34,644 nt of DNA from a virus: positions 1 through 34,644 of IMG/VR virus record IMGVR_UViG_3300035698_029396, one strand, 5' to 3'. The notes under the pieces were generated by a model. That model saw nothing but the letters and a program-made list of their open reading frames with translations. It was not told the origin of the DNA and did no database searches. The position numbers and the translations under genes are program-made. Of the stretch, positions 1 to 34,644 are shown piece by piece; position 1 is the first letter of the stretch, and each line of letters opens with the position of its first letter.

Positions 1-113
1 AAGGACCTTTAAACATGATTAAAGAAGAACTTTCAATTATGAATAAAAGAAGAACTTTCAATTATGAATAAAAGAAGAACTTTCAATTATGAATAAAAGA
101 AGGACTTTCAATC
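1..113. repeat. Iteron array, right half; it continues from 34491..34644 across the circular junction. Candidate plasmid-type replication origin.
   Basis: Identical 25-bp units AAAGAAGAACTTTCAATTATGAATA lie at 21-45, 46-70 and 71-95. Degenerate copies lie at 1-20 and 96-~118. The last copy contains the ATG of the downstream ORF. Confidence 0.75.
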
Positions 114-15697: not shown

Positions 15698-17947
15698 ATG
15701 CCTTCTGAACGTTTTTTTATTGGTCCTTATGAAACAGGATTGGTTCGTAAAGAGAAACCATGGCTTTATCCAAGTGACGCATTTGAAGTAATAAATAATG
15801 CATATGTCTGGCGTGATAGAGTTAAAAAACGTTTTGGTGGTAGATTATTAAATGGTTCGGTAGATGACAATGTTGCACAGTTATTTTCTCGTTTAAGAGT
15901 TTTGGTAGGTACAACAGCAGTTGATGGATCTTTAGTAGCAACATTAGTTCCTGGAAATATATTTAAACGCGGACAAGCATTTTCAATTGGGGATAATATA
16001 TATTATCTTAACGGAAGTGTAGGATCTGTAGTATTAAATGGAACCTTTGGTGGAACGGGTAGTTTTAATTATGGAACATCTCAAGTTTCATTTGCAGCCC
16101 TTATTGGAAATGCGTCTCAAGATGTATATTTTTATCCAACACTCCCTGTTATGGGATTACGCGTAAGAGAGCGCGCTACTATTAATGATGAACAGCTTAT
16201 TGCATTCGATACACAATTTGCCTATATATATAATGGTACCGCATGGGATAGAATCGAAAATACTTTACCTGGTACTGATGACTTATGGCATAGCTCAAAC
16301 AGTCAGTTTTTTTGGTCGTCAAATTGGCGTGGCAATCTACCAAATGAGCGTTTTTTTTGGGTAACGAATTATGATGCAACAGATGGAGCAGGAAACGCTT
16401 TTGCTAATTATGATGGTATACGTTATTACGATGGTGCAAATTTTGTAAAATTGGATCAAGAATATAATCCTGCTACAACTGATCGAGTAGTAAGTGCCCG
16501 TTGCGTTATTCCTTTTAAAGACAGATTGATCCTTTTAAATACTATAGAAGAAACAAACTCAAGAGCTTCGGTAAACACATTTAGAAACAGAGCACGATGG
16601 TGCCAAAATGGTAACCCTATACAAACTGAAGCTTGGTATAATCCTCCTCAAGTATATGGCCGTGGCGATAGATTAGACGCTCCTACCTCTGAAGCTATTG
16701 TAAGTGCTGAGCTGTTAAAAGATAGACTCATTGTTTACTTTGAACGATCAACATGGGAATTAGTCTATACGGGTAACCAAATACTTCCATTCGTATGGCA
16801 AGAAATAAATATTGAACTGGGAGCAGAATCTACTTTTAGTATTGTTCCCTTTGATAAAGTAGTTTTAGGTGTAGGAGATGTAGGTGTTCATGCTTGTAAT
16901 GGTGCATATGTTGAGCGTATAGATCAAAAGATTCCTAATGAAATATTTGAAATTCGTAATCAAAGTAACGGTCCTGATAGGGTATATGGCGTTCGTGACT
17001 ATTCTCTCGAAATGGTATATTGGACCATTCCTTTTGAAACATCCCCAACAACAACTATATTTCCACGAAAAGTTTTAGTATATAACTATGAAAATAAGTC
17101 TTGGGCTTTTTACGATGATAGTATTACCTGTTTTGGACAGTTTCAATTAGATAATGATGCTACTTGGGCCAATAGTGGTAACCTTACCTGGGATACACTT
17201 GATGCTAAATGGAATACAGGATCTCGACAAAATTTAGCCCGTTCTGTAATAGCAGGCAACCAACAAGGGTTTACATTTATTTGTGATAGTGGCGTAAAAA
17301 CAAATGCGTATGCATTGCAAATAACAGATCTTGTGGTTGATGTTAATAATGGTGTTTTAACTCTTACAATTCCTGAACATAATTTAGAAGCTGGAGATTA
17401 CATACAGTTGAATTATGTAGTAAGTACAGATGGTACACTAGCGGCAGCTGTCAATGGAAAGAATTTTTTAATTGAGACTATAGATAGTGTAGATCTAACT
17501 ATGTTTACTATTTCGGTGCCGGATACTGATATCCCTACTAATGATTATATTGGTGGTGGGGTCATTAGTCGTGTATCACGTATTGAAATACTTACTAAGC
17601 AATATAACTTTTATTTGGATAAAGGATGGAACTTTTCTGTTAATAAAATTGATTTCTTGGTAGATAAAACAGGAACTGGGGCTATTACAGTTGATGTTTT
17701 GCCTTCTTCTGGTAATTTTATAACTGAATCCCAAGTTCTTTCCACAAATCCATATGACCTTGTTCCTTTTGAACAACAACAATCTATGTTATGGCATGTG
17801 GCTTACTTTAATGCTTTTGGAAATTTTTTACAATTTAGAATTAGATTAGATGATAATCAGATGTTAGATACAGATTTAACCGATGTTGATTTTACCCTTA
17901 ATGCTATGGTGATTCATGCTAACAGAACTTCTTTCAGACTTCAGTAA
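15698..17947 (+). CDS. Large tail structural protein (tail tubular B / nozzle-like by size and position)
   Basis: 749 aa. The start codon is adjacent to the previous stop. There is no tape-measure-like gene anywhere, which is consistent with a short-tailed virion. Confidence 0.35.
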   Translation: MPSERFFIGPYETGLVRKEKPWLYPSDAFEVINNAYVWRDRVKKRFGGRLLNGSVDDNVAQLFSRLRVLVGTTAVDGSLVATLVPGNIFKRGQAFSIGDNIYYLNGSVGSVVLNGTFGGTGSFNYGTSQVSFAALIGNASQDVYFYPTLPVMGLRVRERATINDEQLIAFDTQFAYIYNGTAWDRIENTLPGTDDLWHSSNSQFFWSSNWRGNLPNERFFWVTNYDATDGAGNAFANYDGIRYYDGANFVKLDQEYNPATTDRVVSARCVIPFKDRLILLNTIEETNSRASVNTFRNRARWCQNGNPIQTEAWYNPPQVYGRGDRLDAPTSEAIVSAELLKDRLIVYFERSTWELVYTGNQILPFVWQEINIELGAESTFSIVPFDKVVLGVGDVGVHACNGAYVERIDQKIPNEIFEIRNQSNGPDRVYGVRDYSLEMVYWTIPFETSPTTTIFPRKVLVYNYENKSWAFYDDSITCFGQFQLDNDATWANSGNLTWDTLDAKWNTGSRQNLARSVIAGNQQGFTFICDSGVKTNAYALQITDLVVDVNNGVLTLTIPEHNLEAGDYIQLNYVVSTDGTLAAAVNGKNFLIETIDSVDLTMFTISVPDTDIPTNDYIGGGVISRVSRIEILTKQYNFYLDKGWNFSVNKIDFLVDKTGTGAITVDVLPSSGNFITESQVLSTNPYDLVPFEQQQSMLWHVAYFNAFGNFLQFRIRLDDNQMLDTDLTDVDFTLNAMVIHANRTSFRLQ

Positions 17948-18500
17948 ATTATCTTTGTTACTGTGTTTATCTTTATGGACCTTGTATGGATTTGGTGCTG
18001 ATTGTGTAATAAAGATAGATACACGTCCTGCTGACTCTGTTTCTATTGATCATAGATGGATAGATGATCCAGGACCGATTTCTATTTTACCTGGAAGATC
18101 TAACATGCATAAATTAGTATGTACTAAAACAGGTGATATAAGTGATGGTATTATGAATGTATATTTCAGAGGAAATGCTCAATCTATACGAAATGTATTA
18201 CGTCCTTATATATTTAAGCATGTAGATGATATTACCGTTATTGATAGAATGGATATACAAAATGAATTAGCATTATCTTCATCATCCTCTTCTGATAAGC
18301 TGAGTGAAAAAATAGGAAATTTAGTAGCACAAGCGGTTGAAGAAGCTTTAATAGAAGAGCAACGTAAATGCTCGGTACAAGAAGAAAGAGTTCATCAAAG
18401 GGTAACTAAGACACGCGTAGCTTTAATCGCTTCTGTGTCCACTATTGTTACCGCTTTGATTACTGCTGGCGTTACCATTGCTATATCATTCAATACCTAG
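17916..18500 (+). CDS. Secreted or membrane-anchored hypothetical protein
   Basis: N-terminal hydrophobic signal-like segment LSLLLCLSLWTLYGFGA and a C-terminal TM segment ALIASVSTIVTALITAGVTIAISF. It overlaps the upstream gene by 32 nt. Its stop overlaps the stop of the convergent gene (CTAG). Confidence 0.45.
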   Translation: MLTELLSDFSKLSLLLCLSLWTLYGFGADCVIKIDTRPADSVSIDHRWIDDPGPISILPGRSNMHKLVCTKTGDISDGIMNVYFRGNAQSIRNVLRPYIFKHVDDITVIDRMDIQNELALSSSSSSDKLSEKIGNLVAQAVEEALIEEQRKCSVQEERVHQRVTKTRVALIASVSTIVTALITAGVTIAISFNT

Positions 18501-19036
18501 TTTTTTAAATATTCTATAACAACTTGAGATCGTATAAAGTTAGTACGATTTACTCCAGTTATTATTTCTATATCGGTATTTGTAATATCAATAGATATAT
18601 TATTTGATAGTGCTGATGTAGATACATATGGTAATGGTATTCTTCTACCCGAGGGATCTGTTGCAGAACCATATATTCTTGTACTGGTATAAGCTGCCTC
18701 AAAATCTATATTGTGGGGGATCAATTTTGTAGCTGCATTTGGTAATGCTCCCGTATCTATATACATTCTAAATGATTGTCTGAACTGAAAAGTTTTTTGA
18801 TCAGGGCCCGTTTCTGAAAGGAGTGGAGGAAAGAGTTGCCCAGTTACAAACTCACTGGGCACATAGAATCCTGATTCTTTTACATTTAAAACTAAAGCTA
18901 CATTATTAATACCTTGTCTTAATCTTGTTATATAGTCTTTAAATTCTATACTTTGGGGATCCATATTTTCTAAAAACGTTGGATCGTATACTTGGGTTGT
19001 CGGTAAATACGCTCCATATTGTGATTGATCTGCCAT
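18497..19036 (-). CDS. Hypothetical protein at the distal end of the fibre operon (fibre accessory or assembly candidate)
   Basis: 179-aa ORF with a GGAT ribosome-binding site. Last gene of the minus-strand fibre block. Confidence 0.4.
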   Translation of the reverse strand: MADQSQYGAYLPTTQVYDPTFLENMDPQSIEFKDYITRLRQGINNVALVLNVKESGFYVPSEFVTGQLFPPLLSETGPDQKTFQFRQSFRMYIDTGALPNAATKLIPHNIDFEAAYTSTRIYGSATDPSGRRIPLPYVSTSALSNNISIDITNTDIEIITGVNRTNFIRSQVVIEYLKN

Positions 19037-19046
19037 TTTTTATCCT

Positions 19047-20237
19047 TTAATTAACAAAATATCCACCGGACATAAAAAGACCTCTTCCCCAAGGAAAAAA
19101 AACAGATGGCATTGGGGCTGGCCCATTTAAACGCGTAGTAAAAAAAAGTCCTGTCGTTCCCGTTATTCTACAAAATGCTTCAGAAGCTGCACCTGTGTCT
19201 GTTTTCTGTACGGGAACATTTGAAGAGATAGACCCACTATTAAAAGGAAGATTAGTAATTGTAACTATGTTGCCTAGCCTCGTTGAAGGAATAATAGAAA
19301 ATCTAATACTTATATTTATCCACACAAAGCTACCAATGCGTATATATTGGCCAACTCTAGAAGATATTTTAAAAGGTCTACTTGCAGGGGGTGTTATTAC
19401 TATATTTGGAACAAAGGTTCCTTCTTCATATCCTCCTGTAGAAGGTGAAGATATAGTTATAGACCCAGCTCCATTAATAATATTAATATTTGAACCAGCT
19501 GTTAAATTATTTATTAAAGGTGTATTGCCAGTCCTTCCTATAGCTATTTCTCCATTATTTTGAACTCCAAGAGCCTGAATTGCGTTATTATTGTTTCCAA
19601 GAAGTATAGATTTATCGGTTAAAGCTGATTTTGTTCCGAGCGGTTCCCAACTTGGAGCAGAGCCTGTATTTCCTATTAAAGTATAGCCTTTAGCAGCTTC
19701 AGGTAATGCTTTTATATTACCTACGCTTCCTCCTATCAAAAGTTTATTATCAGTTGAAAAAGAAAACATAATATCGGATTCGTTTGTATCTTTTTGGTTG
19801 ATTACTTGTAAAGGGGAAGTGGCTGAGAAACGTATAGTATTGTCATCAGGAACTGCACTACTTATATCACAGTCAAATTGTGTAACGTAGTCTCCAGTAT
19901 CATTAATATTTAATTCACTTAAGCCAGCATCTCCCGTTACTAATAAAGGAGATATGCCTAATATATTTATATTTTGTGCAGTTGGCTCTATTGCAATATT
20001 AAACTGATCACTTAAAGTTTCAAGTCCAGATACGTCTATTAAAAGTTCTTTCCAAGTAGCTATATTATCTTCTTTGTTTATAAGTATAAAAATTTTTTTA
20101 TTTTGTATATTTATCCATAAAGTACCAAGTTGGAAATTTAAAAAATCACTTAAAGGATCTTTTTTTTGTATAACTAATGGAACGAGATTCTCGTTGTTTA
20201 TTCCAAGATATAAGTTAGCATCTTGTGCATTATTCAT
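19047..20237 (-). CDS. Tail fibre protein, paralog 1
   Basis: Carries the shared N-terminal module (LYLGINNE..VPLVI....P......LGTLWIN......FILI......ATWKEL). Also has the central motif NGEIAIGRTGNTPLINNLTAGSNINIINGAGSITIS and the C-terminal GTFVPNI...YIRIGSFVWINISI domain. Confidence 0.7.
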   Translation of the reverse strand: MNNAQDANLYLGINNENLVPLVIQKKDPLSDFLNFQLGTLWINIQNKKIFILINKEDNIATWKELLIDVSGLETLSDQFNIAIEPTAQNINILGISPLLVTGDAGLSELNINDTGDYVTQFDCDISSAVPDDNTIRFSATSPLQVINQKDTNESDIMFSFSTDNKLLIGGSVGNIKALPEAAKGYTLIGNTGSAPSWEPLGTKSALTDKSILLGNNNNAIQALGVQNNGEIAIGRTGNTPLINNLTAGSNINIINGAGSITISSPSTGGYEEGTFVPNIVITPPASRPFKISSRVGQYIRIGSFVWINISIRFSIIPSTRLGNIVTITNLPFNSGSISSNVPVQKTDTGAASEAFCRITGTTGLFFTTRLNGPAPMPSVFFPWGRGLFMSGGYFVN

Positions 20238-20244
20238 TTTTATC

Positions 20245-21471
20245 CTAAGTAGTTAAATATGTTCCTGTTAATTGTATTATGGATCCGGGGCTTCCAAAAT
20301 CAGAAAAACGCATTCGTGTTCCAGGCAATGTTATTGAAGTTTTGTTATAATATAACTCACCTGTAGTTCCATTAAATTCAATGGCACCAGTTCCTTTTGC
20401 AATATAGGCATTAAGTCCATTGCCTGTAAAAGTATTTCGCACTACTAGATGTAGTCGGCATATGTCGGCGGTTGCAGCATATGGGAAATTAATAATTGAT
20501 GCTGAAGACCCAGATATAGAAGTGCCGGTAGTTGCGGTAACCAGTGTAACGGTTACAAATACGGTGTTTCCTATTTTTACAAAATGTCCGCTTTGAGTTG
20601 AATAAGTAGCAGCAGTTGTTTCTCCAGTAAAAAATAAAGAAGGAGTAAAGGGTCCTTCATCATAATCTAAGGTGTTACTAGCTGAAATTGTAACACTTCC
20701 TACGCCATTTAAAATAGTTATACCTGTACCAGCTGTTAAAAAAGTGGGAACAGGTATATCACTTTCCCGTCCCATTAGTACTTGACCATTAGCCAGCTCA
20801 GAAGTAGCTTCTACTTGATTATTATTAAAATAGAGGATGCCATTATTTGTTAATCCTGAATTAGTTCCTAGGCTATTGAAAAAGGGATTTGCTCCTGTGT
20901 TGCTTATTGCTACTTCTCCATCAATTCCAACGGGAATAGAAAAAAAACTTCCGCTATTACTTCCAACCAATAAGGCATTTTCTGTATTTCCTGATATAGA
21001 AAAATTAACAACATTGGTACTTCCTATAGTTAAAAAATTATTACCTCCTATAAAGTCTATAATATGCGCATTTGCTTTTGCTGTTCCAATATTTCCTTGA
21101 AAAGTTATATCGGTAGTTCCATTGTTACTTATAGAAATTGTACTCGTATCTTCATTACCTAATGTTGTTATAGTTTTTGCTCCTTTTAACTGTATATTTC
21201 CAAACTGTTGCCCTATTTGGCCTCCACTATTTCCTGTTATAGTTTCAAATGTTGAAGGCTGTTGTCCTAAAGAAAACCAGGTTGCTTTATTTCCTTTAAG
21301 TTTAATAAGAATATATAAATCTTCATTTGGTGCATCTAACCAAAAACTTCCAACAGGTTGATCTATATTGTCTTCAGTAGGAGCAGTATTTAATATAAAA
21401 AGAGGAGCAGGTTTTTCATTAGAAATGCCAAGATATGATAAATTAGAATTATTCGATAACTTTGTTTTCAT
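20245..21471 (-). CDS. Tail fibre protein, paralog 2
   Basis: Same three-part architecture: LSYLGISNE...VGSFWLD...LYILIK...ATWFSL; NGQVLMGRESDIPVPTFLTAGTGITILNGVGSVTIS; GPFTPSL...FVKIGNTVFVTVTL. Confidence 0.7.
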   Translation of the reverse strand: MKTKLSNNSNLSYLGISNEKPAPLFILNTAPTEDNIDQPVGSFWLDAPNEDLYILIKLKGNKATWFSLGQQPSTFETITGNSGGQIGQQFGNIQLKGAKTITTLGNEDTSTISISNNGTTDITFQGNIGTAKANAHIIDFIGGNNFLTIGSTNVVNFSISGNTENALLVGSNSGSFFSIPVGIDGEVAISNTGANPFFNSLGTNSGLTNNGILYFNNNQVEATSELANGQVLMGRESDIPVPTFLTAGTGITILNGVGSVTISASNTLDYDEGPFTPSLFFTGETTAATYSTQSGHFVKIGNTVFVTVTLVTATTGTSISGSSASIINFPYAATADICRLHLVVRNTFTGNGLNAYIAKGTGAIEFNGTTGELYYNKTSITLPGTRMRFSDFGSPGSIIQLTGTYLTT

Positions 21472-21480
21472 TTTTACTCC

Positions 21481-22716
21481 TTAAAAACCGTTAGTTGTAT
21501 AGAAGTCTGCTATCCAAATAGTTGATCCAATATCATACCTATTAGTTGGCATTGAAGTTCCAGTTTGCAACATGGTGATTTCGCCTCCATTTTGACCAGG
21601 AAATACTCTTAATGTTCCTTCTCCTCCTGGATTAGTGTTATTAAAAGAAGAAGAAGGATTTATATCAAATCTTAATCTCATATATAGGTTTTGAGTTGGA
21701 AATGATGACAAAAAAGGAAATCCACGTAATTGGCTTACAAAGGAACTGCTTTTTACCAAATTTGGCCCTATGGTTATAACTGCTTGTAAGAAAACTAAAT
21801 TTCCTATGCGTGTATATACTCCTGAAGAAGGTAAAGAGATAGGATTAACTCTAGCAGTTTGTGTAAGTATTGGAGTCCATGATCCAGTTTCAAAATTTAT
21901 TGTATTATTATCAGTTTTACTGATGGTTATATTTACACCATCTTCTTCTATTTTTATTCCTTCACCTTCGGTTAAGGTACTCCATACAGGATCATTACCA
22001 GTACTTCCAATTAATAATTGCCCATTGTTTTGAGCTTTTGTACTTTCCCATGCATTATTATTTCTTGATATAACTACTGAATTTTCTATTAAATTTGAAT
22101 TTTTTCCAAGTTTTTCATAAGAAGGAGCTTCATCATTTAAACTAATTAACACGTTCCCTGTAATGCCATTAGGAACAAATGCCAATCCATTTTCTATAGA
22201 TGTGACGATAGTATCATGTTCTGGTATATCAACGACGTCTAGAGTAATAGTATTAGTGTTTGCAGTAGTTTCAATATTAGGAGAATTTCCCAAAAATAAA
22301 AAAACATCTTCAACTGCTTGAGAAACATTTCCAAAGTCGTCTTGAAAAAAAATGGCTACAGATGGTATATAATTTAAGGTCAATGAAGCATTAATATCAT
22401 TTCCTTCAATTTCTAAAACTCCTTGCCCTATAAAAGATATATTAAAAGCATTAGGAGGAACTGAAATTGCATCATTTCCTGTTAATGTAAGAAGTTTCCC
22501 CTGATTTATACCTATTTCTTTCCAATTAGCTTTTTTATTTTCTTTTCCAACTAAAAAGAAAATGTTTTCTTCATTTTTATTGATCCATAATGATCCCATA
22601 GGAAAAAATATATTTTTTGTTGTTGGATTTCTAAGATTTTGTATTACTTCACATGTGTCTATTTGGGGAGAGCCAAGATATGCTAGTGAAGGGATTCCAG
22701 TACGTTTTTTTACCAT
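21481..22716 (-). CDS. Tail fibre protein, paralog 3
   Basis: LAYLGSPQ...MGSLWIN...IFFLVG...ANWKEI; NGQLLIGSTGNDPVWSTLTEGEGIKIEEDGVNITIS; GSWTPIL...YTRIGNLVFLQAVI. Confidence 0.7.
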   Translation of the reverse strand: MVKKRTGIPSLAYLGSPQIDTCEVIQNLRNPTTKNIFFPMGSLWINKNEENIFFLVGKENKKANWKEIGINQGKLLTLTGNDAISVPPNAFNISFIGQGVLEIEGNDINASLTLNYIPSVAIFFQDDFGNVSQAVEDVFLFLGNSPNIETTANTNTITLDVVDIPEHDTIVTSIENGLAFVPNGITGNVLISLNDEAPSYEKLGKNSNLIENSVVISRNNNAWESTKAQNNGQLLIGSTGNDPVWSTLTEGEGIKIEEDGVNITISKTDNNTINFETGSWTPILTQTARVNPISLPSSGVYTRIGNLVFLQAVITIGPNLVKSSSFVSQLRGFPFLSSFPTQNLYMRLRFDINPSSSFNNTNPGGEGTLRVFPGQNGGEITMLQTGTSMPTNRYDIGSTIWIADFYTTNGF

Positions 22717-22867
22717 TTTTACTCTCCGAGTGTTACTCTGCCAATATGGACTCTTCTATATTATCAATAAATATAATTCTTACCTTTACCATTCTTACTC
22801 TCCGAAAATAACGGTAAAGAAAAACGTATATCAAGCAAAGTATTTACCTGATATACGTATAATAAAA

Positions 22868-23074
22868 TTAAGTAATTTGTTTCCAAATAGCTTGATTTGC
22901 TACAGTTGCTATTAAAATGTATGCTTCTTGCCCTAGTTCATCTATCCAAATTTGTCCTGGTTCCTCTCGGTTATTAACTGTTGGAACTCCGTTGCCAAAA
23001 ATAGGACTTGGAAATATTTCTAAAGTAGGCTGGCTGAGTCCATAAGATACATTTAATCTTTGTTTTTTACTCAT
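22868..23074 (-). CDS. Orphan fibre N-terminal module (68 aa); a stand-alone anchor domain or the remnant of a truncated fibre gene
   Basis: VSYGLSQPTLEI...PGQIWIDELGQEAYILIATVANQAIWKQIT aligns with the N-terminal ~65 aa of the fibre paralogs. The ORF then ends. Confidence 0.5.
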   Translation of the reverse strand: MSKKQRLNVSYGLSQPTLEIFPSPIFGNGVPTVNNREEPGQIWIDELGQEAYILIATVANQAIWKQIT

Positions 23075-23110
23075 TATATATCCTTAGTTTTTAAATTATA
23101 CATTCGTGTA

Positions 23111-23791
23111 TTAACCCATAAAGTAACCACTTATACGTGTATCTGATAGTCTTTCACCTCCAGTTGTTGAAGCTCTTATATCAACTATTCTTGTTCCACT
23201 TAAAGCTTGAACTTCTAATTGAACATTTTGACCTGCTACAAGATTTACAACTGTATTACATTGCATATTTATATTCGATAAATTAGATGTACCAACAGCT
23301 ACAGCGTAGAACTCTCCAGCAACAAATTGACGCGGTATAACAGGATTAGAAATTCTATAATAAGTTCTTATTGATTCAAGTCCTGAACTATTAACATCGC
23401 TAAGACTAATTTGAGCATCAAATCTATAGGTGCCATCTTCAGGAGCTGTAAAAATTTGACCATCAAATACATTACTCACATCAATGTTTTGGACTTCAAA
23501 GTTAGGAATAGCAACAGTTCCATCACCAGTAACATCAGATTCATTAGTATCTTTATAATACGAAAATACGTGCTTTAATGTACCACTACTACTAGAAGAT
23601 CCAACAACTTGCCATGTATATACACCCATTTCTTGTTTTATCAGTTGGAAACTTTCTGGGGTATCTATATTTATCCAAAAAGTACCAATCTCTGCATTAT
23701 CTTTAATTGTTGGATTTCTTCGTTTTACAATAGGTCCTTGTGCAAGATCTAATGTCGGATCTGTTAATCCATATGCTTTATTATTAGCCAT
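23111..23791 (-). CDS. Short tail fibre with a C1q/TNF-like globular head
   Basis: Shared N-terminal module (AYGLTDPTLDL...IGTFWINIDTPESFQLIK...YTWQVV). The C-terminal FEVQNIDVSNVFDGQIFTAPEDGTYRFDAQISL closely fits the C1q signature F-x5-G-x-Y-x-F. Confidence 0.55.
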   Translation of the reverse strand: MANNKAYGLTDPTLDLAQGPIVKRRNPTIKDNAEIGTFWINIDTPESFQLIKQEMGVYTWQVVGSSSSSGTLKHVFSYYKDTNESDVTGDGTVAIPNFEVQNIDVSNVFDGQIFTAPEDGTYRFDAQISLSDVNSSGLESIRTYYRISNPVIPRQFVAGEFYAVAVGTSNLSNINMQCNTVVNLVAGQNVQLEVQALSGTRIVDIRASTTGGERLSDTRISGYFMG

Positions 23792-23793
23792 TT

Positions 23794-23997
23794 CTATTCT
23801 CCAAAAAAGTATTCTTCAATGTCATCAAACTTTACAATAGATGTCTTTTCTTCCTCACCTTGTGGACTGGTACTTACCCAATCTAAAGAAACATCTACAT
23901 CAACTTTATCAATAAGTTCTTTAACGGGATTCTGTTTTAAGCATCCTGAACATCCGCTCAGGCAAGAAAGAAAAAAAACTAATGCTACTCTTTTCAT
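23794..23997 (-). CDS. Small lipoprotein
   Basis: MKRVALVFFLSCLSGC carries a signal peptide and an LSGC lipobox. 67 aa with an acidic mature part. Embedded between fibre genes. Confidence 0.65.
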   Translation of the reverse strand: MKRVALVFFLSCLSGCSGCLKQNPVKELIDKVDVDVSLDWVSTSPQGEEEKTSIVKFDDIEEYFFGE

Positions 23998-24006
23998 AAA
24001 ATCTCC

Positions 24007-25749
24007 TTAAGAAATTAAATAACTACCACTTATATTTACCTGAGTATTGTTGGCAAAGTTTGCATCGGTTAATGCATTGTTAGCGCCTGTGGCTGATGAA
24101 ACTTGCTGAAATAAAACACGGCCATCAGTAAACAATATTGTTTGAAGTTGACTAGTACTTGTATACGTAAGGTTTATAAACCTTATAGAAGTAGGTGCTA
24201 CAAAAGATGCAAGTGGCAATCCAACAAGGTTAACTTCAGCGGGACCTGTAGCCGTTCCTTTACTTGTTAAGGTTATGCGAACTACAAAAGTTACTACATT
24301 GCCTATACGACTATAAGCACTTTCTTGGCTGCTGTAAGTAATACCTGTTGAAGATCCAGAAAAAGATAATGTTGGTGTAAATGAAGTAGTATTAACAAAG
24401 TTTATTGATCCTAATTGACCTGCATTATCCACAACGACTACTTCTTGCGTTGCATTTGCAGGTGTAACATTGTATATGCCAGCAATAAATGTCGTATCTT
24501 GTTGTCCCGCTCCGGTACCCTGTGTACCAAGACGAATCCTATTATTATCACCAGCAATACCCACATTACGAATCATGACATTATCGCTATCAGATCCTGT
24601 TAACGCTGATCCACTATTATAGCCAAAACAACTGTTATAAGACCCTGTAGTTGCATTCGTTAAACCACTGGTTCCAACTACTGTATTGTATGTAGCATTG
24701 GTTAATGCATCCGAGCTATTGTATCCAACTGAAACGTTAAAATCTGCACCAGAAGCATTTAAATTAAGTAATGCATTTTGTCCTACGGCAACTGTTCTAT
24801 CGGTATCTTGAGCAACAAATAAAGCTTGTCTACCAAATGCTATATTACCAATACCTGTAGTAAGTGACGCAGCAGCTCCATGGCCAACTGCTGAATTTGA
24901 ATTACCAGACGATATATTTACAAGAGCAGAACTTCCAATTGCCTGGTTTAACGTTCCTGTAGCACTTAAATTACCTGCATTTAGTCCAACAAAAATATTG
25001 GAAGATGCATTCTTTGTGATTATTCTATCACCACCAAAATTAATAACTCCTTCAGTTCCAGCGCCATTAGAGTCGGGTAAATTAAGATTACCTGCATCGA
25101 TAGTTACATCACCAGTAGTTACCGTAAGCCCTGTGCCTGCCGTTATAGTGGTCCCTGCATCTAAGAAACCAGTTAGAGTAACATCATCATTAAGGTTTAT
25201 TATTATTGTATCTGATGGTGGAGGGAAATCTGCAGTTGTATTAATGTTTGAACCACCAATTACACTCACTTGATCAGATGCATTTGGAGTTGCAGTTCCT
25301 GAATCTGTTGGGAAGGTTAATCCTGTACTTGCAGCAGATACTGTAAGATCAAGACTGTTTGATCCTGGTGTAAAAGAAACACTACTATCAGTAGAAGTTA
25401 AAGAAGCCCATGCAGCATTTCCAGAACTGTTTCCAATAATAAGTTGCCCATTAGTAGATGCAACGTTTCCTACCAAAAAGTTACCCGAAATAATATTTAC
25501 ATTATTTATTAAGGTAATTTCTCCTGTGCCATTTGGCTGGAGAACTATATCTCCATTAATTCCAGGATCAATGGCAAAGTTGGAAGTTCCTTCATCAGGA
25601 ATTGCTCCTGGGGTAGGAAGCGAATTAATATTAAACGTTGATGTGCTAACATCAAATCCCATTGCAAGAGATTCACCACTATCTGTTTCTAGATATACAT
25701 AGGTATCAAGGTCCACACCTGTTGTTCTAAAGCCAATTTGTCTGGTCAT
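24007..25749 (-). CDS. Long tail fibre protein
   Basis: 580 aa, Gly/Ser/Thr/Asn-rich and repetitive. Contains NGQLIIGNSSGNAAWASLTS and the C-terminal SFTPTLSFSG...YSRIGNVVTFVVRITL domain shared with paralogs 1-3. It lacks the shared N-terminal module. Confidence 0.7.
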   Translation of the reverse strand: MTRQIGFRTTGVDLDTYVYLETDSGESLAMGFDVSTSTFNINSLPTPGAIPDEGTSNFAIDPGINGDIVLQPNGTGEITLINNVNIISGNFLVGNVASTNGQLIIGNSSGNAAWASLTSTDSSVSFTPGSNSLDLTVSAASTGLTFPTDSGTATPNASDQVSVIGGSNINTTADFPPPSDTIIINLNDDVTLTGFLDAGTTITAGTGLTVTTGDVTIDAGNLNLPDSNGAGTEGVINFGGDRIITKNASSNIFVGLNAGNLSATGTLNQAIGSSALVNISSGNSNSAVGHGAAASLTTGIGNIAFGRQALFVAQDTDRTVAVGQNALLNLNASGADFNVSVGYNSSDALTNATYNTVVGTSGLTNATTGSYNSCFGYNSGSALTGSDSDNVMIRNVGIAGDNNRIRLGTQGTGAGQQDTTFIAGIYNVTPANATQEVVVVDNAGQLGSINFVNTTSFTPTLSFSGSSTGITYSSQESAYSRIGNVVTFVVRITLTSKGTATGPAEVNLVGLPLASFVAPTSIRFINLTYTSTSQLQTILFTDGRVLFQQVSSATGANNALTDANFANNTQVNISGSYLIS

Positions 25750-25758
25750 ACTATACTC

Positions 25759-26268
25759 CTAAATAATGGTAAATGAGCCAACCCAGTTTATATTTGTAGC
25801 TGCTACTCCTACTACAAAAACCTGCACATCGTTTCCAGAAACTTGAGCAAAGAAATTTGGATTACCGCCCATGTCTTCGGTAAAAAATATATTAGGAGAT
25901 CCTACAATAACGGCAGGGTTAACTCCTTCTTTGCGTGCTACAATATCTATGGTACCTCCAAGAGCTCCTGACAAATCATCTGTTCCAGCTATAATACGGC
26001 CTTGAATTAACAGAGCATTGTCATCCGTCAGAGTGGTAGAATATAACAATGTGGGTGTTGCATCTATTGTAAAAACAGAAACTTGAGATGTGCCTGCGAG
26101 ATTAAGAGTAATAGTGCTGGTCCCTGGATTGCCTACAGTGTCTATACCAATACCACCTAAAATATTTATATTGTCAGCAGTAGGAAATACAGCTCCGCCA
26201 GTATTACCTGTTAATGATTGCACTCCTGTTGCTGAGCTTCCATCATCAAAAAAAACAAGTTGAGACAT
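25759..26268 (-). CDS. Fibre-associated structural protein
   Basis: 169 aa. The Gly/Thr/Asn-rich beta-type sequence (NINILGGIGIDTVGNPGTSTITLNL) resembles the fibre shaft repeats. Confidence 0.5.
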   Translation of the reverse strand: MSQLVFFDDGSSATGVQSLTGNTGGAVFPTADNINILGGIGIDTVGNPGTSTITLNLAGTSQVSVFTIDATPTLLYSTTLTDDNALLIQGRIIAGTDDLSGALGGTIDIVARKEGVNPAVIVGSPNIFFTEDMGGNPNFFAQVSGNDVQVFVVGVAATNINWVGSFTII

Positions 26269-26271
26269 AAT

Positions 26272-26613
26272 TTATCCTATATTTCTGTACCATGAGGCTA
26301 CATAGATAGCACCTGTTGTAGGCGCGCCAGTTAATTGTCTTACATAAACACGGGTCCCACTTGGCAATGACAACGAGTCTCCTTTTCCTTTATTTGAAGA
26401 AAAGTCTCTTATTGATGCTCCTACTTGTAAGGGAAAGTGGTCTGTCACTCCATCTAATGAGATTTGAAGAGGCACATCGGTAAAATTATACATTTCAAAT
26501 AATACTGATGGATTTTCTAAAAAAGTTCCTATTCCCATATAAGATGCACTAATACTAGAAAAATCTAATGATCTTTGCTGTTCTGGCCAAATTTGTATGG
26601 CGATACTGCTCAT
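26272..26613 (-). CDS. Hypothetical protein, first gene of the fibre operon
   Basis: The ORF is open to 26742 through a TTG start. The ATG at 26613 (MSSIAIQIWPEQQ) follows AAAGGA and leaves a sensible divergent promoter region. Confidence 0.45.
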   Translation of the reverse strand: MSSIAIQIWPEQQRSLDFSSISASYMGIGTFLENPSVLFEMYNFTDVPLQISLDGVTDHFPLQVGASIRDFSSNKGKGDSLSLPSGTRVYVRQLTGAPTTGAIYVASWYRNIG

Positions 26614-26682
26614 TTTTTTCCTTTTTTCATATTTTTTATCTTTCTTTTTATAAGTTACTTCATTTAAAGCAGCGCTATCTAC

Positions 26683-26714
26683 ACTTTGCAAAGTTCTTTG
26701 TTTTATTTTATTGT
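26683..26714. promoter_or_regulatory. 12-bp perfect palindrome ACTTTGCAAAGT that provides TTGCAA -35 boxes on both strands; candidate rightward promoter TTGCAA-17-TATTGT
   Basis: Palindrome at 26683-26694. Rightward -35 box at 26686-26691, 17-nt spacer, -10 box TATTGT at 26709-26714. It lies about 35 nt upstream of the AAGGAG ribosome-binding site of the 26752 gene. Confidence 0.35.
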
Positions 26715-26751
26715 GGGTCATCTTATAACGGATAAAAAGCAAGGAGTCAGA

Positions 26752-26961
26752 ATGGTTTTAGATATTATTTTATTAGTGTCAGTAGAATTAACTGCATTAA
26801 ATAAAATCTATAAAGAAGCACTAGAGCAAGAAATGGATATAGAAAGTTATATAAGTTTAATTGTTAAGGAAAAGCTATATGGAACAGGAAATTCTCAAGC
26901 ATTTATTGGAACTCAAAGCCTTCATTATGGAAAATCAGTACAAGGAGCCATTGAGAAGTAA
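26752..26961 (+). CDS. Putative ribbon-helix-helix (Arc/CopG-like) regulator
   Basis: The ATG is preceded by the strong ribosome-binding site AAGGAG. MVLDIILLVSVELTALNKIYKEALEQEMDIESYISLIVKEKL has a strand/helix/helix pattern. Confidence 0.4.
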   Translation: MVLDIILLVSVELTALNKIYKEALEQEMDIESYISLIVKEKLYGTGNSQAFIGTQSLHYGKSVQGAIEK

Positions 26962-27604
26962 AGAACTCAATGAACTTTTTGCTGCACTTTCTAAAGCACA
27001 AGGAAATTTTCCTTCATTAGAGCCAAATAGAGAGAATTCCTACTATAAAAGGTTATATGGAGATTGGGATCTTATCTGTACTGCCTTAAGGCCTGTTTTA
27101 TCTGAACATGATTTAACATTAATTCAGGATTTAAGAGTCGAAGATGATGGGTCGACTGCCCTGTATACAATTTTAGGACATTCTAGTGGTCAATATATAC
27201 AATCAAAAGTACGTATAAACGCTCCTAAAAACGATCTTCAATCCTTTGGGTCTGCATTGCTTACCTTAAAAAGATATGCGGGAATGTCTCTATTAGGTGT
27301 AACGGTAGCAATGGATCAAGATGACGATGATGCAGAAGTAACTATGTCTGAAGTACGGGGTATTAAAAAGAGCGGCACAAAGCCAAGTCTCGCATATGAT
27401 CCTAAAAAAAGATCTTATGAAAAAATATCCAAAGATCAGGTAGAAGAGCTTAACTATGTGTGCGGTGATTATCCTGACTTAGTACAGCAAATATATGATG
27501 ATTATCGTATATCTTCTCTTTCGGAAATGCCAAAAGAAGATTTTTTCTCCTCTGTTGATAGGCTTAGAGAAATTATTGCTCTTCGTAAAGGCTTAAAGAA
27601 ATAA
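26927..27604 (+). CDS. erf: ERF-family single-strand annealing protein (paralog 1)
   Basis: LNELFAALSKAQGNF..., YKRLYGDWDLICTALRPVLSEHDLTL, ILGHSSGQY, LKRYAGMSLLGV and DQDDDDAE follow the ERF (P22 Erf) family pattern. The start is uncertain (26879 or 26927). Confidence 0.7.
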   Translation: MENQYKEPLRSKELNELFAALSKAQGNFPSLEPNRENSYYKRLYGDWDLICTALRPVLSEHDLTLIQDLRVEDDGSTALYTILGHSSGQYIQSKVRINAPKNDLQSFGSALLTLKRYAGMSLLGVTVAMDQDDDDAEVTMSEVRGIKKSGTKPSLAYDPKKRSYEKISKDQVEELNYVCGDYPDLVQQIYDDYRISSLSEMPKEDFFSSVDRLREIIALRKGLKK

Positions 27605-28110: not shown

Positions 28111-28686
28111 ATGTCATTTTTAAGAGGAACCCCAGGAAGATTTGAACAGCAACCTAGATTTAATCCACAAGTAACCAGGATTTTGGAACAACTTGCCCCT
28201 CTGGGATTACAACAGATTCAGCAAGGTCAACAGATGGCAAATCCTCAAGCGTTAGAAGATAGAGCGCGGCAACAATTTAGTGAACAAACATTGCCAGGAT
28301 TATTTGAACGATTTACCAGCATGGGACAAGGAGCTCAAAGTTCTGGAGCTTTTCAAGGTATGCAAGCACGAGGAGCTGCAGACTTGGAAGGTAATTTAGC
28401 AGCATTACGCGCACAACTTGGTATGCAAAATCAGCAGCTAGGACAAGGCTTGCTTGGTATGGGATTTACTCCTCAATTTGAGTCATTGTATCGTCCGCGT
28501 GAAGCTGGTGGTGTAGAGGCTATGCTTCCACAACTTATTCAAACCGCTGGAAGAATTGGAGGAGCTTACTTAACATCGGGTGCTTCTGAAATTCCACAGA
28601 TTGCAAGCAGTGTGGCTGGCGGAGGCGGCATTGGAGAATATTTTAAACCAATTTCTGATTTGTATAATTCATTATTTGGTAATTAA
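28111..28686 (+). CDS. Gln/Gly-rich protein; putative internal virion or ejection (pilot-like) protein
   Basis: 191 aa with a strong AAAGGAGAAAG ribosome-binding site and low-complexity Q/G/A-rich composition. Function is inferred from composition only. Confidence 0.35.
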   Translation: MSFLRGTPGRFEQQPRFNPQVTRILEQLAPLGLQQIQQGQQMANPQALEDRARQQFSEQTLPGLFERFTSMGQGAQSSGAFQGMQARGAADLEGNLAALRAQLGMQNQQLGQGLLGMGFTPQFESLYRPREAGGVEAMLPQLIQTAGRIGGAYLTSGASEIPQIASSVAGGGGIGEYFKPISDLYNSLFGN

Positions 28687-31749: not shown

Positions 31750-32091
31750 ATGAATTATAAATTATCAAAATTAATACAAGAACTGTGTCGACATATAATC
31801 TTAAAAGAGCAAATAGCTCTCGCACTACAAAATGTAGTTTTGAGTGATAAGAATACGAGCGCCTGTGTTGGTGATTATGAGACCTTTAATCTTCAAGATA
31901 ATGAAACATTGTGGAAAATAAGGGATAATCATGAAGTTTTTTGGATTGAAAGATTAAAAAAAGTGCATGATAGCATCGATCGTATTCAAGATAAGTTATT
32001 TGAGGAGTTCGATTTATATGTAGATTGCCTTTCACGGTATGAGACTTGGGAAAAGTTGTTTAAGAATGTTGAAAAACATAGAGGAACTTGA
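31750..32091 (+). CDS. Hypothetical protein
   Basis: 113-aa ORF. Its stop overlaps the next start (ATGA-type coupling). Confidence 0.5.
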   Translation: MNYKLSKLIQELCRHIILKEQIALALQNVVLSDKNTSACVGDYETFNLQDNETLWKIRDNHEVFWIERLKKVHDSIDRIQDKLFEEFDLYVDCLSRYETWEKLFKNVEKHRGT

Positions 32092-32720
32092 TGGCAAAGC
32101 ATGAAAATATAATTTATGCGTTAATTGCGGCCAAAAGAGAGTTTAAGAAAGAGTCATCATCAGGACAGGCGCAGATAAGTGGTAAAAGAGGATGGTCGTA
32201 TAGCAACGTTAAAGATTTTATTCAGATGACGGATGAAGCCTTAGCAGATCACGAGTTATGGTTATCGCATTCGGTTATTCGTGACAATACGGTCAATGAG
32301 GATGTGCTTATTACAACGATAGAGCATGCACCAACGAGAGAGAAGCATATTGATACAAGGTACATGAAAAATATAAAAGGTGGTCATCAGGGTCATGGAG
32401 AGGCGCAGTCTTATGCGCGTCGTTATGCTATTCAATCGTTGTTGGGATTACCGCAATCAGAAAAGGAAGATGATGATGGTTGTGCTACTCAGAAATATAT
32501 TGATAAAAAAAAGAAAGAAGGAAATATAGGAAAAATTCCTACTTACGTGACAAAGACTATTTCAACAGCTCAGCTTGAAGAACTACATAACCTTATTGCG
32601 GTAAGTGATAGTGAGTCGGTAGCAAGAACATTATCATTTAATAAGGTAAATCATCTGGAAGAGATGAATGAATCTCAATGGAATAATATTATTAACTTTC
32701 TTAAAAAGAGCGCAAAATGA
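32088..32720 (+). CDS. erf: ERF-family single-strand annealing protein (paralog 2)
   Basis: NIIYALIAAKREF..., WSYSNVKDFIQMTDEALADHELWL, TIEH, GEAQSYARRYAIQSLLGLP and EKEDDDG follow the ERF family pattern. Lies directly upstream of SSB. Confidence 0.7.
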   Translation: MMAKHENIIYALIAAKREFKKESSSGQAQISGKRGWSYSNVKDFIQMTDEALADHELWLSHSVIRDNTVNEDVLITTIEHAPTREKHIDTRYMKNIKGGHQGHGEAQSYARRYAIQSLLGLPQSEKEDDDGCATQKYIDKKKKEGNIGKIPTYVTKTISTAQLEELHNLIAVSDSESVARTLSFNKVNHLEEMNESQWNNIINFLKKSAK

Positions 32721-34490: not shown

Positions 34491-34644
34491 AAAAAAGGAC
34501 TTTCAATGTCATTTGAACTGGATCTTAATCATCTTAAAAGAAGAACTTTCAATCATCTTAAAAGAAGAACTTTCAATCATCTTAAAAGAAGGACCTTTAA
34601 ACATGATTAAAGAAGAACTTTCAATTATGAATAAAAGAAGAACT
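34491..34644. repeat. Iteron array, left half, plus a 56-nt terminal redundancy with the window start
   Basis: Units AAAAGAAGAACTTTCAATCATCTT at 34536-34559 and 34560-34583. Variant units at 34491-34515, 34584-34608 and 34609-34633. Positions 34589-34644 are identical to 1-56. Confidence 0.8.

What the first reader, a model, noticed from the sequence alone, without database searches (positions are those of the whole stretch)
18497..26613. About 8 kb minus-strand block of tail-fibre paralogs that share one N-terminal docking module and differ in their distal domains
Five ORFs begin with the same ~65-aa module, Y-(L)-G.....P.........G..W(I/L)(N/D)......(I/L)L(I/V).......W: 19047-20237, 20245-21471, 21481-22716, 22868-23074 and 23111-23791.

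Three of them plus the 580-aa fibre (24007-25749) also share two further elements:
- a central NGQ(L/V)(L/I)IG....(P)W..LT.G.GI.I.....(I)TIS motif
- a C-terminal G.(F/W)TP.L......Y.(R/K)IG..V domain

The intervening shafts and tips are divergent.

This looks like several alternative or simultaneously mounted receptor-binding fibres docking to one virion site, as in branched multi-fibre systems. That is a large investment, roughly a quarter of a 34.6-kb genome, and it suggests a broad or switchable host range.
Basis: partly seen in the sequence, partly recalled or inferred. Interest (0 to 1): 0.65.

Follow-up and report, generated by a model that had tools for sequence, protein, structure and literature searches.

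The report
Expanded tail-fibre gene block of podophage
An uncultured 34.6-kb short-tailed phage from a salt lake carries five genes with the N-terminal attachment module that its relatives carry one to three times, so it probably mounts several different receptor-binding fibres; this is an unusually large example of a known strategy, not a new kind of system.

Summary
Five minus-strand ORFs (19047-20237, 20245-21471, 21481-22716, 22868-23074, 23111-23791) begin with a homologous ~65-aa module (shuffle z 6-17 for all ten pairs). The central NGQ..TIS motif and the C-terminal domain are also real.

The block is the host-recognition module of a complete circular 34,588-bp phage genome. It has a P22-type portal and a nozzle-like 749-aa tail protein. 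The family has 515 metagenomic relatives and no cultured one.

In relatives with enough flank, 35 of 37 have the module at the N-terminus of 1-3 fibre genes (187-1346 aa) with unrelated distal parts. That is the signature of a virion anchor. Five copies is the maximum seen.

Refinements:
- The module has two leader subtypes. Subtype I is o226 and o68. Subtype II is o411, o408 and o396. In relatives the two occupy different gene positions, so two docking specificities are likely, not one.
- o396, o408 and o411 are end-to-end paralogs, not a shared anchor on different distal domains.
- o226 has a C1q/TNF-like head like the cyanophage A4 and A-1(L) fibre domains.
- o68 is an anchor-only stub followed by a terminator.
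- The module's core is a widespread ~45-aa repeat with no Pfam model.

Docking, co-mounting and host range remain inferred.

The parts
26272..26613 (-). o113: small conserved protein. It is the conserved 113-aa part of the 156-aa TTG ORF 26272-26742 and the first gene of the fibre operon. Candidate fibre chaperone or adaptor.
   Evidence: Homologs of ~110-117 aa occur in 38 related loci, often duplicated, always just upstream of the class-B fibre gene. The alignment starts at residue 44, an ATG at 26613 preceded by AGGA. There is no PDB, PHROG or Pfam match.
25759..26268 (-). o169: short class-B fibre protein without the N-module. It starts directly with the TLTGNxGG/NINxxG shaft repeat.
   Evidence: Residues 2-168 align to o408 61-262 (E 2e-9). 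Its first ~60-74 aa are 45-58% identical to the N-termini of 368-858-aa fibres in relatives. L029 has a 174-aa ortholog in the same position.
24007..25749 (-). o580: long fibre or spike with its own N-terminus, an NGQLIIG motif at 100-138, and the same C-terminal domain family as o396, o408 and o411.
   Evidence: PHROG tail spike phrog_4636, E 9e-13. The C-terminal domain scores z 12.3 against o408. Its N-terminus matches the 951-aa fibre of L029 and a 245-aa protein of L085.
23794..23997 (-). o67: predicted lipoprotein inside the fibre operon. Not a fibre.
   Evidence: The sequence MKRVALVFFLSCLSG|C has a signal peptide and a lipobox. No homolog was found in the related loci.
23111..23791 (-). 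o226: short fibre made of a subtype-I N-module (1-65), a Ser-rich linker and a C1q/TNF-like head (76-224).
   Evidence: AlphaFold2 model with mean pLDDT 81. Residues 1-15 are disordered and the module 21-63 has four strands at pLDDT 85-94. Foldseek against PDB: 9k09_A 4.5e-8, C1q domains ~1e-7, 8ke9_A 2e-7. BFVD returns C1q-domain phage proteins.
22868..23074 (-). o68: anchor-only stub. It is a subtype-I N-module with nothing after it.
   Evidence: It matches the whole module profile (E 5e-23, positions 1-67 of 69). The 41 complete module-bearing ORFs in relatives are all at least 187 aa. AAGGA lies 8 nt upstream of the ATG.
22824..22858 (-). Terminator-like hairpin (16 pairs plus a T run) directly after o68. 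It splits the block into two transcription units.
   Evidence: inverted repeat I14.
22733..22792 (-). 19-codon upstream ORF that starts with a duplicate of the o411 ribosome-binding site and start codon.
   Evidence: 21-nt direct repeat at 22709-22729 and 22785-22805, 95% identical (D5). It translates to MVKVRIIFIDNIEESILAE*.
21481..22716 (-). o411: subtype-II N-module fibre, 411 aa.
20245..21471 (-). o408: subtype-II N-module fibre, 408 aa.
   Evidence: In the model only the N-module and part of the C-terminal domain are confident.
19047..20237 (-). o396: subtype-II N-module fibre, 396 aa.
18497..19036 (-). o179: conserved core virion-module protein. It is not a fibre paralog. It is the last gene of the minus-strand run.
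   Evidence: Homologs at 36-50% identity occur in 74 related loci, directly after the p749 homolog, on either strand (48 plus, 24 minus). Its N-terminus is not significantly like the module.
15698..17947 (+). p749: conserved tail protein, candidate nozzle or hub and the most likely docking partner.
   Evidence: 515 relatives in viral contigs. Its profile matches PDB 8zkk 'nozzle gp16' at E 1.3e-3. PHROG virion structural protein.

Best explanation
The block is the host-recognition module of an uncultured short-tailed phage. The ~65-aa module is the virion-proximal anchor of this phage family's tail fibres. It has a leader of about 20 residues that AlphaFold2 leaves disordered, followed by a four-stranded beta unit of about 45 residues. 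I infer that the leader becomes ordered on binding.

Trimers of each fibre would dock through this anchor to the conserved tail: p749 (nozzle-like), with p210, p326 or o179 as possible further partners. The distal parts bind host surface receptors.

The window phage has expanded the anchor-bearing genes to five, in two anchor subtypes.
- Subtype I is o226, a short fibre with a C1q-like head, plus o68, an anchor-only remnant.
- Subtype II is three old tandem paralogs, o411, o408 and o396. They share one architecture, and their divergence is concentrated in shaft residues 71-160 and in the tip half of the C-terminal domain.

Because relatives routinely carry one gene of each subtype at different positions, the two subtypes probably use two different docking specificities. 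Within subtype II the three paralogs would compete for the same sites. That would give virions with mixed fibres, or a mixed virion population, and so a wider receptor repertoire.

o169 and o580 are further fibres without the anchor. They presumably attach by another route, possibly through the conserved small protein o113.

Shown: the homology, the family-wide N-terminal position on variable distal parts, the copy-number excess, the two subtypes, the C1q fold of o226 and the operon layout.

Inferred: docking itself, the partner, co-mounting and the effect on host range.
For: Homology of the five modules.

Profile search of 1.84 billion representative proteins:
- 2775 hits in total.
- Profile positions 1-20 are matched only at protein N-termini.

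Family context:
- The family is defined by p749, with 515 viral contigs.
- Of relatives with at least 7 kb of downstream flank, 35 of 37 have the module at the N-terminus of 1 gene (28 loci), 2 genes (6) or 3 genes (1).
- All 53 such genes are on the same strand as p749. The first starts a median 3.9 kb downstream. Complete ORFs are 187-1346 aa.
- Distal parts differ: Peptidase_S74, K1-lyase_C, C1q-like, the o408-type C-terminal domain, and several with no Pfam hit.

Two subtypes with fixed gene positions in L029, L070 and L094.

Structure:
- o226 model: leader residues 1-15 have pLDDT below 50 and the module 21-63 has pLDDT 85-94.
- The o408 model gives the same pattern.
- The o226 head is C1q-like. 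Its best match is a chain of the cyanophage A4 portal-tail complex, and the A-1(L) short-fibre domain also matches.
- The paper on A4 (PMC12002296) describes gp24 as an N-terminal head-binding domain, a stem and a C-terminal binding domain, with six trimers at the adaptor-nozzle junction.

Other points:
- All five genes are intact, each with its own ribosome-binding site.
- The paralogs share no DNA repeat longer than 30 nt, so the duplications are old and have been retained.
- Pairwise identity of the module tracks that of p749 across 41 loci (Spearman 0.37, Mantel p 0.0005). This is similar to p210 against p749 (0.35). It is weak evidence because shared ancestry alone produces such a correlation.
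Against: - There is no experimental or structural evidence of docking for this module.
- No sequence match to any solved structure, and no Pfam, NCBIfam or informative PHROG hit.
- The ~45-aa core of the module also occurs internally and in tandem arrays of up to 22 copies in other proteins. It is therefore a generic building block, and any docking specificity must lie in the leader or in the context.
- The identification of p749 as a nozzle rests on one weak PDB match (E 1.3e-3) and on gene order.
- The fold of the N-module could not be searched on its own.
- The o408 model is poor (pLDDT 58.6).
- The host is unknown.
- Public reads are too sparse to show expression or variants.
Confidence: 0.55

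Rival explanations
1. Branched or serial assembly. Only one protein docks to the tail. The N-module binds another fibre protein or a small adaptor (o580, o169 or o113), so that the fibres form a tree as in G7C, KP32, K1-5, CBA120 or PhiK64-1.
For: The block also encodes fibres without the module (o169, o580) and a conserved small protein, o113. In relatives o113 always sits between the first module-bearing fibre and the class-B fibre. Two leader subtypes co-occur in one genome, as primary and secondary receptor-binding proteins do in branched systems (PMC6872550). The module's core can stack in tandem.
Against: No T4gp10-like branching domain was found, though only Pfam, NCBIfam and PHROG scans were possible. 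In 28 of 37 relatives a single module-bearing gene is the only one present. It is the first fibre gene after the tail genes, which is the position expected for the primary tail-anchored fibre.
Confidence: 0.2
2. The module is not an attachment domain. It is a generic fibre repeat that serves trimer nucleation, shaft building or glycan binding, and it merely happens to lie at the N-terminus. Attachment is by other means.
For: Profile positions ~22-68 recur internally, up to 22 times in one 1614-aa protein and 2-7 times in many others. These include proteins whose N-terminus differs from the module leader, such as P0017. Some family members carry two tandem units at the N-terminus (P0038, P0043).
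Against: In this phage family the module is at the extreme N-terminus in all 53 cases. It always carries a leader that is never seen internally. It is the only part conserved between fibres whose remainders are unrelated. That pattern is the one seen for known anchors (T7 gp17, P22 gp9; established knowledge, and PMC6872550).
Confidence: 0.12
3. Redundant or decaying duplicates. Only one or two of the five genes yield virion proteins. The others are unexpressed relics, so host range is not broadened.
For: o68 is clearly a truncated copy. It is followed by a terminator and by a duplicated start-site scar. A 69-aa truncated receptor-binding protein is documented in Klebsiella phage KpV767 and read as retrograde evolution (PMC6872550). 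The region has been rearranged relative to the family order.
Against: o396, o408, o411 and o226 are intact. Each has its own Shine-Dalgarno sequence and the genes are 2-10 nt apart. At ~30% identity the duplications are old, yet the reading frames, the motifs and the C-terminal domain are kept. That argues for selection on each copy.
Confidence: 0.08

Closest known systems
Anchor-based tail fibres of T7-like tails (T7 gp17, K1F gp17, cyanophage A4 gp24, Legionella phage LME-1 fibre)
   Same: A conserved N-terminal virion-binding part carries an exchangeable distal receptor-binding part. The fibre gene lies downstream of the tail-tube and nozzle genes in a small podophage. The o226 head has the same C1q/TNF-like fold as the binding domains of the A4 and A-1(L) fibres.
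   Different: There is no sequence or Pfam relationship to the gp17 N-terminal domain. The module is much smaller (~65 aa) and its core is a repeat unit. Those phages are described with one fibre protein that forms six trimers; this genome has five anchor-bearing genes. Docking at an adaptor-nozzle junction is assumed here, not shown.
Anchor-branch multi-RBP systems (G7C gp66/gp63.1, KP32 and KP34 Klebsiella podophages, K1-5/SP6, CBA120, PhiK64-1)
   Same: Several receptor-binding proteins are encoded in one genome. Conserved N-terminal elements decide the architecture, and the distal parts are exchanged horizontally. Host range is expanded in the experimentally tested cases (PMC6872550; abstracts of PMC13352976 and PMC13579863).
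   Different: In those systems one RBP carries the anchor plus a T4gp10-like branching domain, and the others carry different short peptides. Here the same homologous module, in two subtypes, heads all five genes, and no T4gp10-like domain was detected.
Truncated secondary RBP of Klebsiella phage KpV767 (69 aa, only the conserved N-terminal peptide)
   Same: o68 is a 68-aa ORF that keeps only the conserved N-terminal attachment element.
   Different: A different, unrelated anchor. o68 keeps a good ribosome-binding site and is followed by a strong terminator, so it could still be made.
Invertible tail-fibre switches (Mu G segment, P1 C segment)
   Same: A constant N-terminal part is combined with alternative distal parts to change host range (established knowledge).
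   Different: Here each paralog is a complete gene with its own module, ribosome-binding site and start codon. No invertase or crossover repeats are present.

Membership tests
T7 gp17-type tail fibre (Pfam Phage_T7_tail N-terminal domain) | Sequence or HMM match of the N-terminus to the gp17 N-terminal domain | tested here: not met
   No Pfam family at E <= 0.1 for any of the five proteins. No PDB sequence match for the module profile; the best E is 0.12, to unrelated retroviral capsid proteins.
T7 gp17-type tail fibre (Pfam Phage_T7_tail N-terminal domain) | Trimer docked at the adaptor-nozzle junction, six per virion | not testable with these tools
   This needs cryo-EM or multimer modelling. 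The only supporting facts are a weak nozzle match for p749 and the gene order.
Modular RBP with a conserved N-terminal anchor (general class, as defined in PMC6872550) | The N-terminal stretch is conserved among related phages while the rest of the protein is not | tested here: met
   35 of 37 relatives carry the module at the N-terminus of fibres 187-1346 aa long with different distal domains.
Anchor-branch RBP system | T4gp10-like branching domain in the primary RBP | tested here: inconclusive
   Nothing was detected by Pfam, NCBIfam or PHROGs. No profile-profile (HHpred-type) search was available, and the shaft of the o408 model is of low confidence.
Anchor-branch RBP system | Secondary RBPs carry short conserved peptides distinct from the anchor | tested here: not met
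   All five genes carry the same homologous 65-aa module. The two leader subtypes are the nearest equivalent.
C1q/TNF-like receptor-binding head (o226) | Jelly-roll fold superimposable on C1q globular domains | tested here: met
   Foldseek probability 1.00, with E 8e-8 to 3e-6 and target TM-scores 0.63-0.78 to the C1q-family chains among the 50 best hits. The model's mean pLDDT is 81. A weak sequence match to cerebellin-1 also exists.
C1q/TNF-like receptor-binding head (o226) | Match to the Pfam C1q model | tested here: not met
   No Pfam hit.
Invertible tail-fibre switch (Mu/P1 type) | Site-specific invertase next to the fibre genes, and inverted crossover repeats flanking alternative 3' segments | tested here: not met
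   No recombinase among the ORFs scanned. Inverted repeats are at most 34 nt and 71-93% complementary, and none lies at a module boundary.
Diversity-generating retroelement target (Mtd type) | Template and variable repeat pair, and a reverse transcriptase | tested here: not met
   No direct repeat longer than 30 nt in 18400-26800. No reverse transcriptase domain in the ORFs scanned.

The most novel reading that the evidence does not exclude
In a 35-kb podophage, several paralogous fibres with the same anchor compete for a small fixed number of tail sites. Each burst would then release virions with different fibre mixtures, a built-in bet-hedging of host range without any genetic switch. The anchor-only 68-aa protein o68 would act as a competitor or cap that tunes how many sites carry a fibre. 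The anchor itself would be the founding, functionally assigned member of a widespread ~45-aa 'DPT..D....G..WiN......L......W' repeat family that has no Pfam model.
Probability: 0.15. Interest if true: 0.7.

Novelty: new variant of a known kind. Interest (0 to 1): 0.45.

Why it matters
If the anchor assignment is right, this family of at least 515 uncultured phage genomes offers a very small (~65 aa) plug-in adaptor. It is naturally used with many different distal receptor-binding domains. That is useful for reading host-range modules in metagenomes and as a chassis concept for exchanging fibres.

The five-copy genome is a natural test case for an open question. When several fibres share one docking element, are they mixed on single virions or sorted? 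The answer bears on how small phages widen host range.

The work also flags a common fibre repeat, and two conserved proteins (o179 and o113), that have no annotation in Pfam, NCBIfam, PHROGs or the PDB.

Tried and rejected
- Pfam, PHROGs and NCBIfam on all ten block proteins gave almost nothing. The only usable hit was tail spike and structural PHROGs for o580.
- Megablast of the block, and tblastn of o408 and o226, against 50,697 deposited phage records found no match. The portal and p749 find only relatives at 21-26% identity.
- The word-indexed homolog search found 8 hits for o408, 1 for o226 and none for the module alignment.
The p749 alignment was used instead.
- The genome-contig scan for hosts returned four loci. 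Three are contigs of 30-40 kb in metagenome-assembled genomes of unrelated taxa (Bacteroidaceae, Methanobacterium, Patescibacteria), probably phage contigs mis-binned. The fourth is a fragment in a Chlamydiales chromosome. The host stays unknown.
- Profiles of the o179 and o113 families against PDB sequences and PHROGs found nothing.
- Reads from four salt-lake runs are identical to the window but only ~1-2x deep and in 151-330 nt pieces. They show no variants or joints.
- A first alignment for the o226 structure misaligned the C1q segments and was discarded.
- The o408 model is poor outside the N-module. Its Foldseek hits (Det7 tailspike at E 0.02, reovirus sigma1, adenovirus fibre shaft) are only suggestive of a trimeric fibre.
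- An invertible switch and a diversity-generating retroelement were considered and rejected.
- The mirror-tree test (Mantel) is positive, but it does not clearly separate the module from the distal parts (0.37 against 0.23), so little weight is put on it.
- o179 was considered as a sixth module copy and rejected (z 1.4-2.1). It is a conserved core gene.


Full report
**What the window is**

The two ends of the window share an exact 56-bp overlap, so it is a complete circular or circularly permuted genome of 34,588 bp. GC content is about 35%.

It encodes:
- a RepO-like initiator next to an iteron array;
- RusA, two ERF-family proteins and SSB;
- a large terminase, a P22-type portal (PF16510, E 4e-65) and a capsid protein.

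Fragments identical to the window occur at very low depth in several salt-lake metagenome runs. No deposited phage record is close. The portal finds podophages at 21-23% identity, and the 749-aa tail protein finds only Pseudomonas phage tf and two others at 23-26%.

**Check of the observation**

The first 68 residues of o396, o408, o411, o68 and o226 are significantly alike in all ten pairs (z 6.1-17.5 against 1000 shuffles). The N-termini of o179, o580, o169, o156 and o67 are not.

The NGQ..TIS motif is at 228-263, 228-263 and 231-266 in the three ~400-aa proteins. In o580 a more divergent copy lies at 100-138.

The C-terminal domain links o408 to o580 (z 12.3), to o396 (9.2) and to o411 (8.1). 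The weaker pairs are joined by an iterated profile search.

Three refinements follow.
- o396, o408 and o411 are paralogs over their whole length (27-30% identity, E 1e-39 to 1e-52). Identity by region is 29-37% in the module, 21-22% in residues 71-160, 34-41% in 161-265, 23-25% in the first half of the C-terminal domain, and 16-25% in the last ~70 residues.
- They share no DNA repeat longer than 30 nt, so the duplications are old.

**Layout of the block**

Transcription runs on the minus strand in this order: o113, o169, o580, o67, o226, o68, then a 16-bp-stem terminator-like hairpin with a T run (22858-22824), then o411, o408, o396 and o179.

Every gene has an AGGA/GGAG site 6-9 nt before its ATG. 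Neighbouring genes are 2-10 nt apart, except around o68.

Between the hairpin and o411 lies a 95%-identical duplicate of the o411 ribosome-binding site and start codon. It heads a 19-codon ORF. This looks like a recombination scar.

**The phage family and the role of the module**

A profile of p749 (15698-17947) finds 515 relatives in viral contigs of about 32-40 kb. The family gene order, from 22 mapped loci, is:

p326, p210, p749, o179 (either strand), a ~200-aa gene, a 350-1100-aa gene, a few small minus-strand genes, a fibre gene that begins with the module, a ~70-aa gene, one or two o113-like genes, a 'class-B' fibre, and further fibres.

A class-B fibre has an N-terminus like that of o169, which equals the shaft start of o408.

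Among relatives with at least 7 kb of downstream flank, the number of module-bearing genes is 0 in 2 loci, 1 in 28, 2 in 6 and 3 in 1. All 53 such genes are on the p749 strand. Complete ORFs range from 187 to 1346 aa.

The parts after the module are unrelated to one another. They include Peptidase_S74 chaperone ends, a K1-lyase_C end, C1q-like heads, the o408-type C-terminal domain, and many with no Pfam hit.

A constant N-terminus on exchangeable distal parts, conserved with the tail genes, is how known virion anchors look (PMC6872550). The window, with five copies, is the extreme of the family. Its block is also inverted and rearranged: the gene that normally follows o179 (p191, 28111-28686) is now 9 kb away.

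**Two anchor subtypes**

Nearest-neighbour comparison and leader motifs split the five copies.
- o226 and o68 have the leader 'aYGLSqPtL...P.PI' (subtype I). Where the leader motif could be classified, this is the type of the first fibre gene in relatives.
- o396, o408 and o411 have 'n.LsYlG....P.P' (subtype II). This is the type found in the last fibre gene of L029, L070 and L094, just before the minus-strand ERF gene.

Because one genome regularly carries one gene of each subtype at these two positions, the subtypes more likely serve two docking specificities than one. The window therefore has one working subtype-I fibre plus a stub, and three subtype-II fibres.

**Structure**

The AlphaFold2 model of o226 was built on a 22-row alignment and has mean pLDDT 81. 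It shows:
- a disordered leader (residues 1-15);
- a confident four-stranded unit (21-63, pLDDT 85-94);
- a linker;
- a jelly-roll domain (76-224).

Foldseek places that domain with C1q/TNF heads. The best hit is a chain of the cyanophage A4 portal-tail complex (E 4.5e-8). The binding domain of the A-1(L) short tail fibre is also among the top hits. BFVD returns many phage 'C1q domain' proteins and tail fibres.

In A4 the fibre gp24 has an N-terminal head-binding domain, a stem and this kind of C-terminal binding domain. Six trimers sit at the adaptor-nozzle junction (PMC12002296). Legionella phage LME-1 is built in a similar way (PMC12407071).

The o408 model is poor (pLDDT 58.6) apart from its N-module and part of the C-terminal domain. 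Its hits are only suggestive of a trimeric fibre.

The p749 profile weakly matches a solved 'nozzle gp16' (E 1.3e-3). Together with the gene order, this makes p749 the most likely docking partner. That is an inference.

**The module core is a common repeat**

A profile of the module finds 2775 proteins among 1.84 billion representatives. Positions 1-20 are matched only at N-termini. Positions ~22-68 ('DPT..D....G..WiN......L......W') also occur internally, up to 22 times in one protein. None of the ten checked proteins has a Pfam model covering it.

The beta unit is therefore a generic building block. Any specificity for the virion should lie in the leader and its context. This is the main caveat to the docking reading and the basis of one rival explanation.

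**Other members of the block**

- o179 is a conserved core protein (74 loci), not a paralog. It flips strand in a third of relatives.
- o113 is conserved, often duplicated, and always precedes class-B fibres. It may be a chaperone or adaptor.
- Neither o179 nor o113 matches anything in PDB sequences or PHROGs.
- o67 is a predicted lipoprotein with no homolog in relatives.

**Mechanism and rivals**

The best-supported reading is anchor-based fibres in two anchor subtypes, with three subtype-II paralogs competing for the same sites. A C1q-headed short fibre and at least two anchorless fibres would give further receptor specificities.

The rivals are:
- branched assembly through another fibre or o113;
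- the module as a mere structural repeat;
- partial decay of the array.

o68 is most simply a remnant. Its precedent is the 69-aa truncated receptor-binding protein of phage KpV767. Its good ribosome-binding site leaves open a role as a competitor for docking sites.

Genetic switching is not supported. There is no invertase, no crossover repeat, and no template/variable repeat pair or reverse transcriptase in the ORFs scanned.

**Novelty and verdict**

The principle is well known: a conserved N-terminal anchor, exchangeable distal parts, and several receptor-binding proteins for a broader host range.

What is new here:
- the particular anchor, which is very small, unannotated and built on a widespread repeat;
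- an uncultured family that uses it;
- a genome in which the same anchor heads five genes, against one to three in 35 of 37 relatives.

This differs from the described anchor-branch systems, in which secondary proteins use different peptides. I rate it a new variant of a known kind, of moderate interest. Its value lies mainly in the testable question of fibre mixing on one virion.

Noticed in passing
window 1-113 and 34530-34644: An array of at least seven iteron-like repeats (AAGAAGAACTTTCAAT, period ~25 nt) spans the junction of the circular genome, directly upstream of a RepO/DnaD-like initiator gene (114-1502). It is probably the replication origin. The window ends overlap by 56 bp.
   Followed up: partly
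window 23794-23997 (-): A 67-aa predicted lipoprotein (MKRVALVFFLSCLSG|C) sits inside the fibre operon between o580 and o226. No homolog occurs in 80 related loci. Its position next to receptor-binding genes recalls receptor-masking superinfection-exclusion lipoproteins such as T5 Llp; this comparison is from memory and was not tested. It implies a diderm host.
   Followed up: partly
window 17916-18500 (+): A 194-aa ORF overlaps the end of p749. It has an N-terminal signal-like hydrophobic stretch and a C-terminal transmembrane-like stretch. No homolog occurs in any related locus. It sits exactly at the junction where the inverted fibre block begins, so it may be an inserted accessory gene.
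   Followed up: partly
window 18497-19036 (-); L012, L021, L025, L027, L030, L034, L046, L050, L069, L085 and others: The conserved 179-aa gene next to the nozzle-like gene lies on the minus strand in 24 of 72 relatives and on the plus strand in 48, while its neighbours keep their orientation. A single core gene that flips repeatedly is odd. Flanking repeats were not examined.
   Followed up: no
window 28111-28686 (+) and 28696-30774 (+): p191 is the homolog of the ~200-aa gene that follows o179 in 61 relatives, but here it lies 9 kb away from o179. The 692-aa gene after it has no detectable homolog in the related loci and no Pfam or PHROG hit, although it occupies the slot of the large variable gene of relatives, a possible ejection protein. 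The virion module has been rearranged in this genome.
   Followed up: partly
window 22733-22858 (-): A strong terminator-like hairpin follows o68. It is followed by a 21-nt duplicate (95% identical) of the o411 ribosome-binding site and start codon, which heads a 19-codon ORF ending 16 nt before the o411 ATG. This may be a recombination scar or a leader peptide.
   Followed up: partly
proteins P0009-P0157; window modules at residues ~22-68 of o396, o408, o411, o68 and o226: A ~45-aa unit 'DPT..D....G..WiN......L......W' is found in 2775 representative proteins and in tandem arrays of up to 22 copies. No Pfam model covers it in the ten proteins checked. It appears to be an undescribed fibre repeat family.
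   Followed up: partly
window 26272-26613 (-); for example L021 15046-15722 and L026 17878-18557: A conserved ~113-aa protein, often present as two tandem paralogs in relatives, always precedes the class-B fibre gene. It has no match in PDB sequences, Pfam or PHROGs. It is a candidate fibre chaperone or adaptor.
   Followed up: partly
window 26861-27604 (+) and 32088-32720 (+): Two separate ERF-family single-strand annealing protein genes occur in one 34.6-kb genome. The first abuts the fibre block, and its homolog in relatives (L094, L085, L002) lies on the opposite strand at the end of the fibre block.
   Followed up: no
L092 (Chlamydiales bacterium BSEPT1 chromosome, OZ156466.1, near its end): A short fragment matches p749 residues 145-252 at 38% identity inside a complete Chlamydiales chromosome. 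It is the only hit of the genome scan that lies in a chromosome. It may be a prophage remnant and a weak hint to the host lineage.
   Followed up: no
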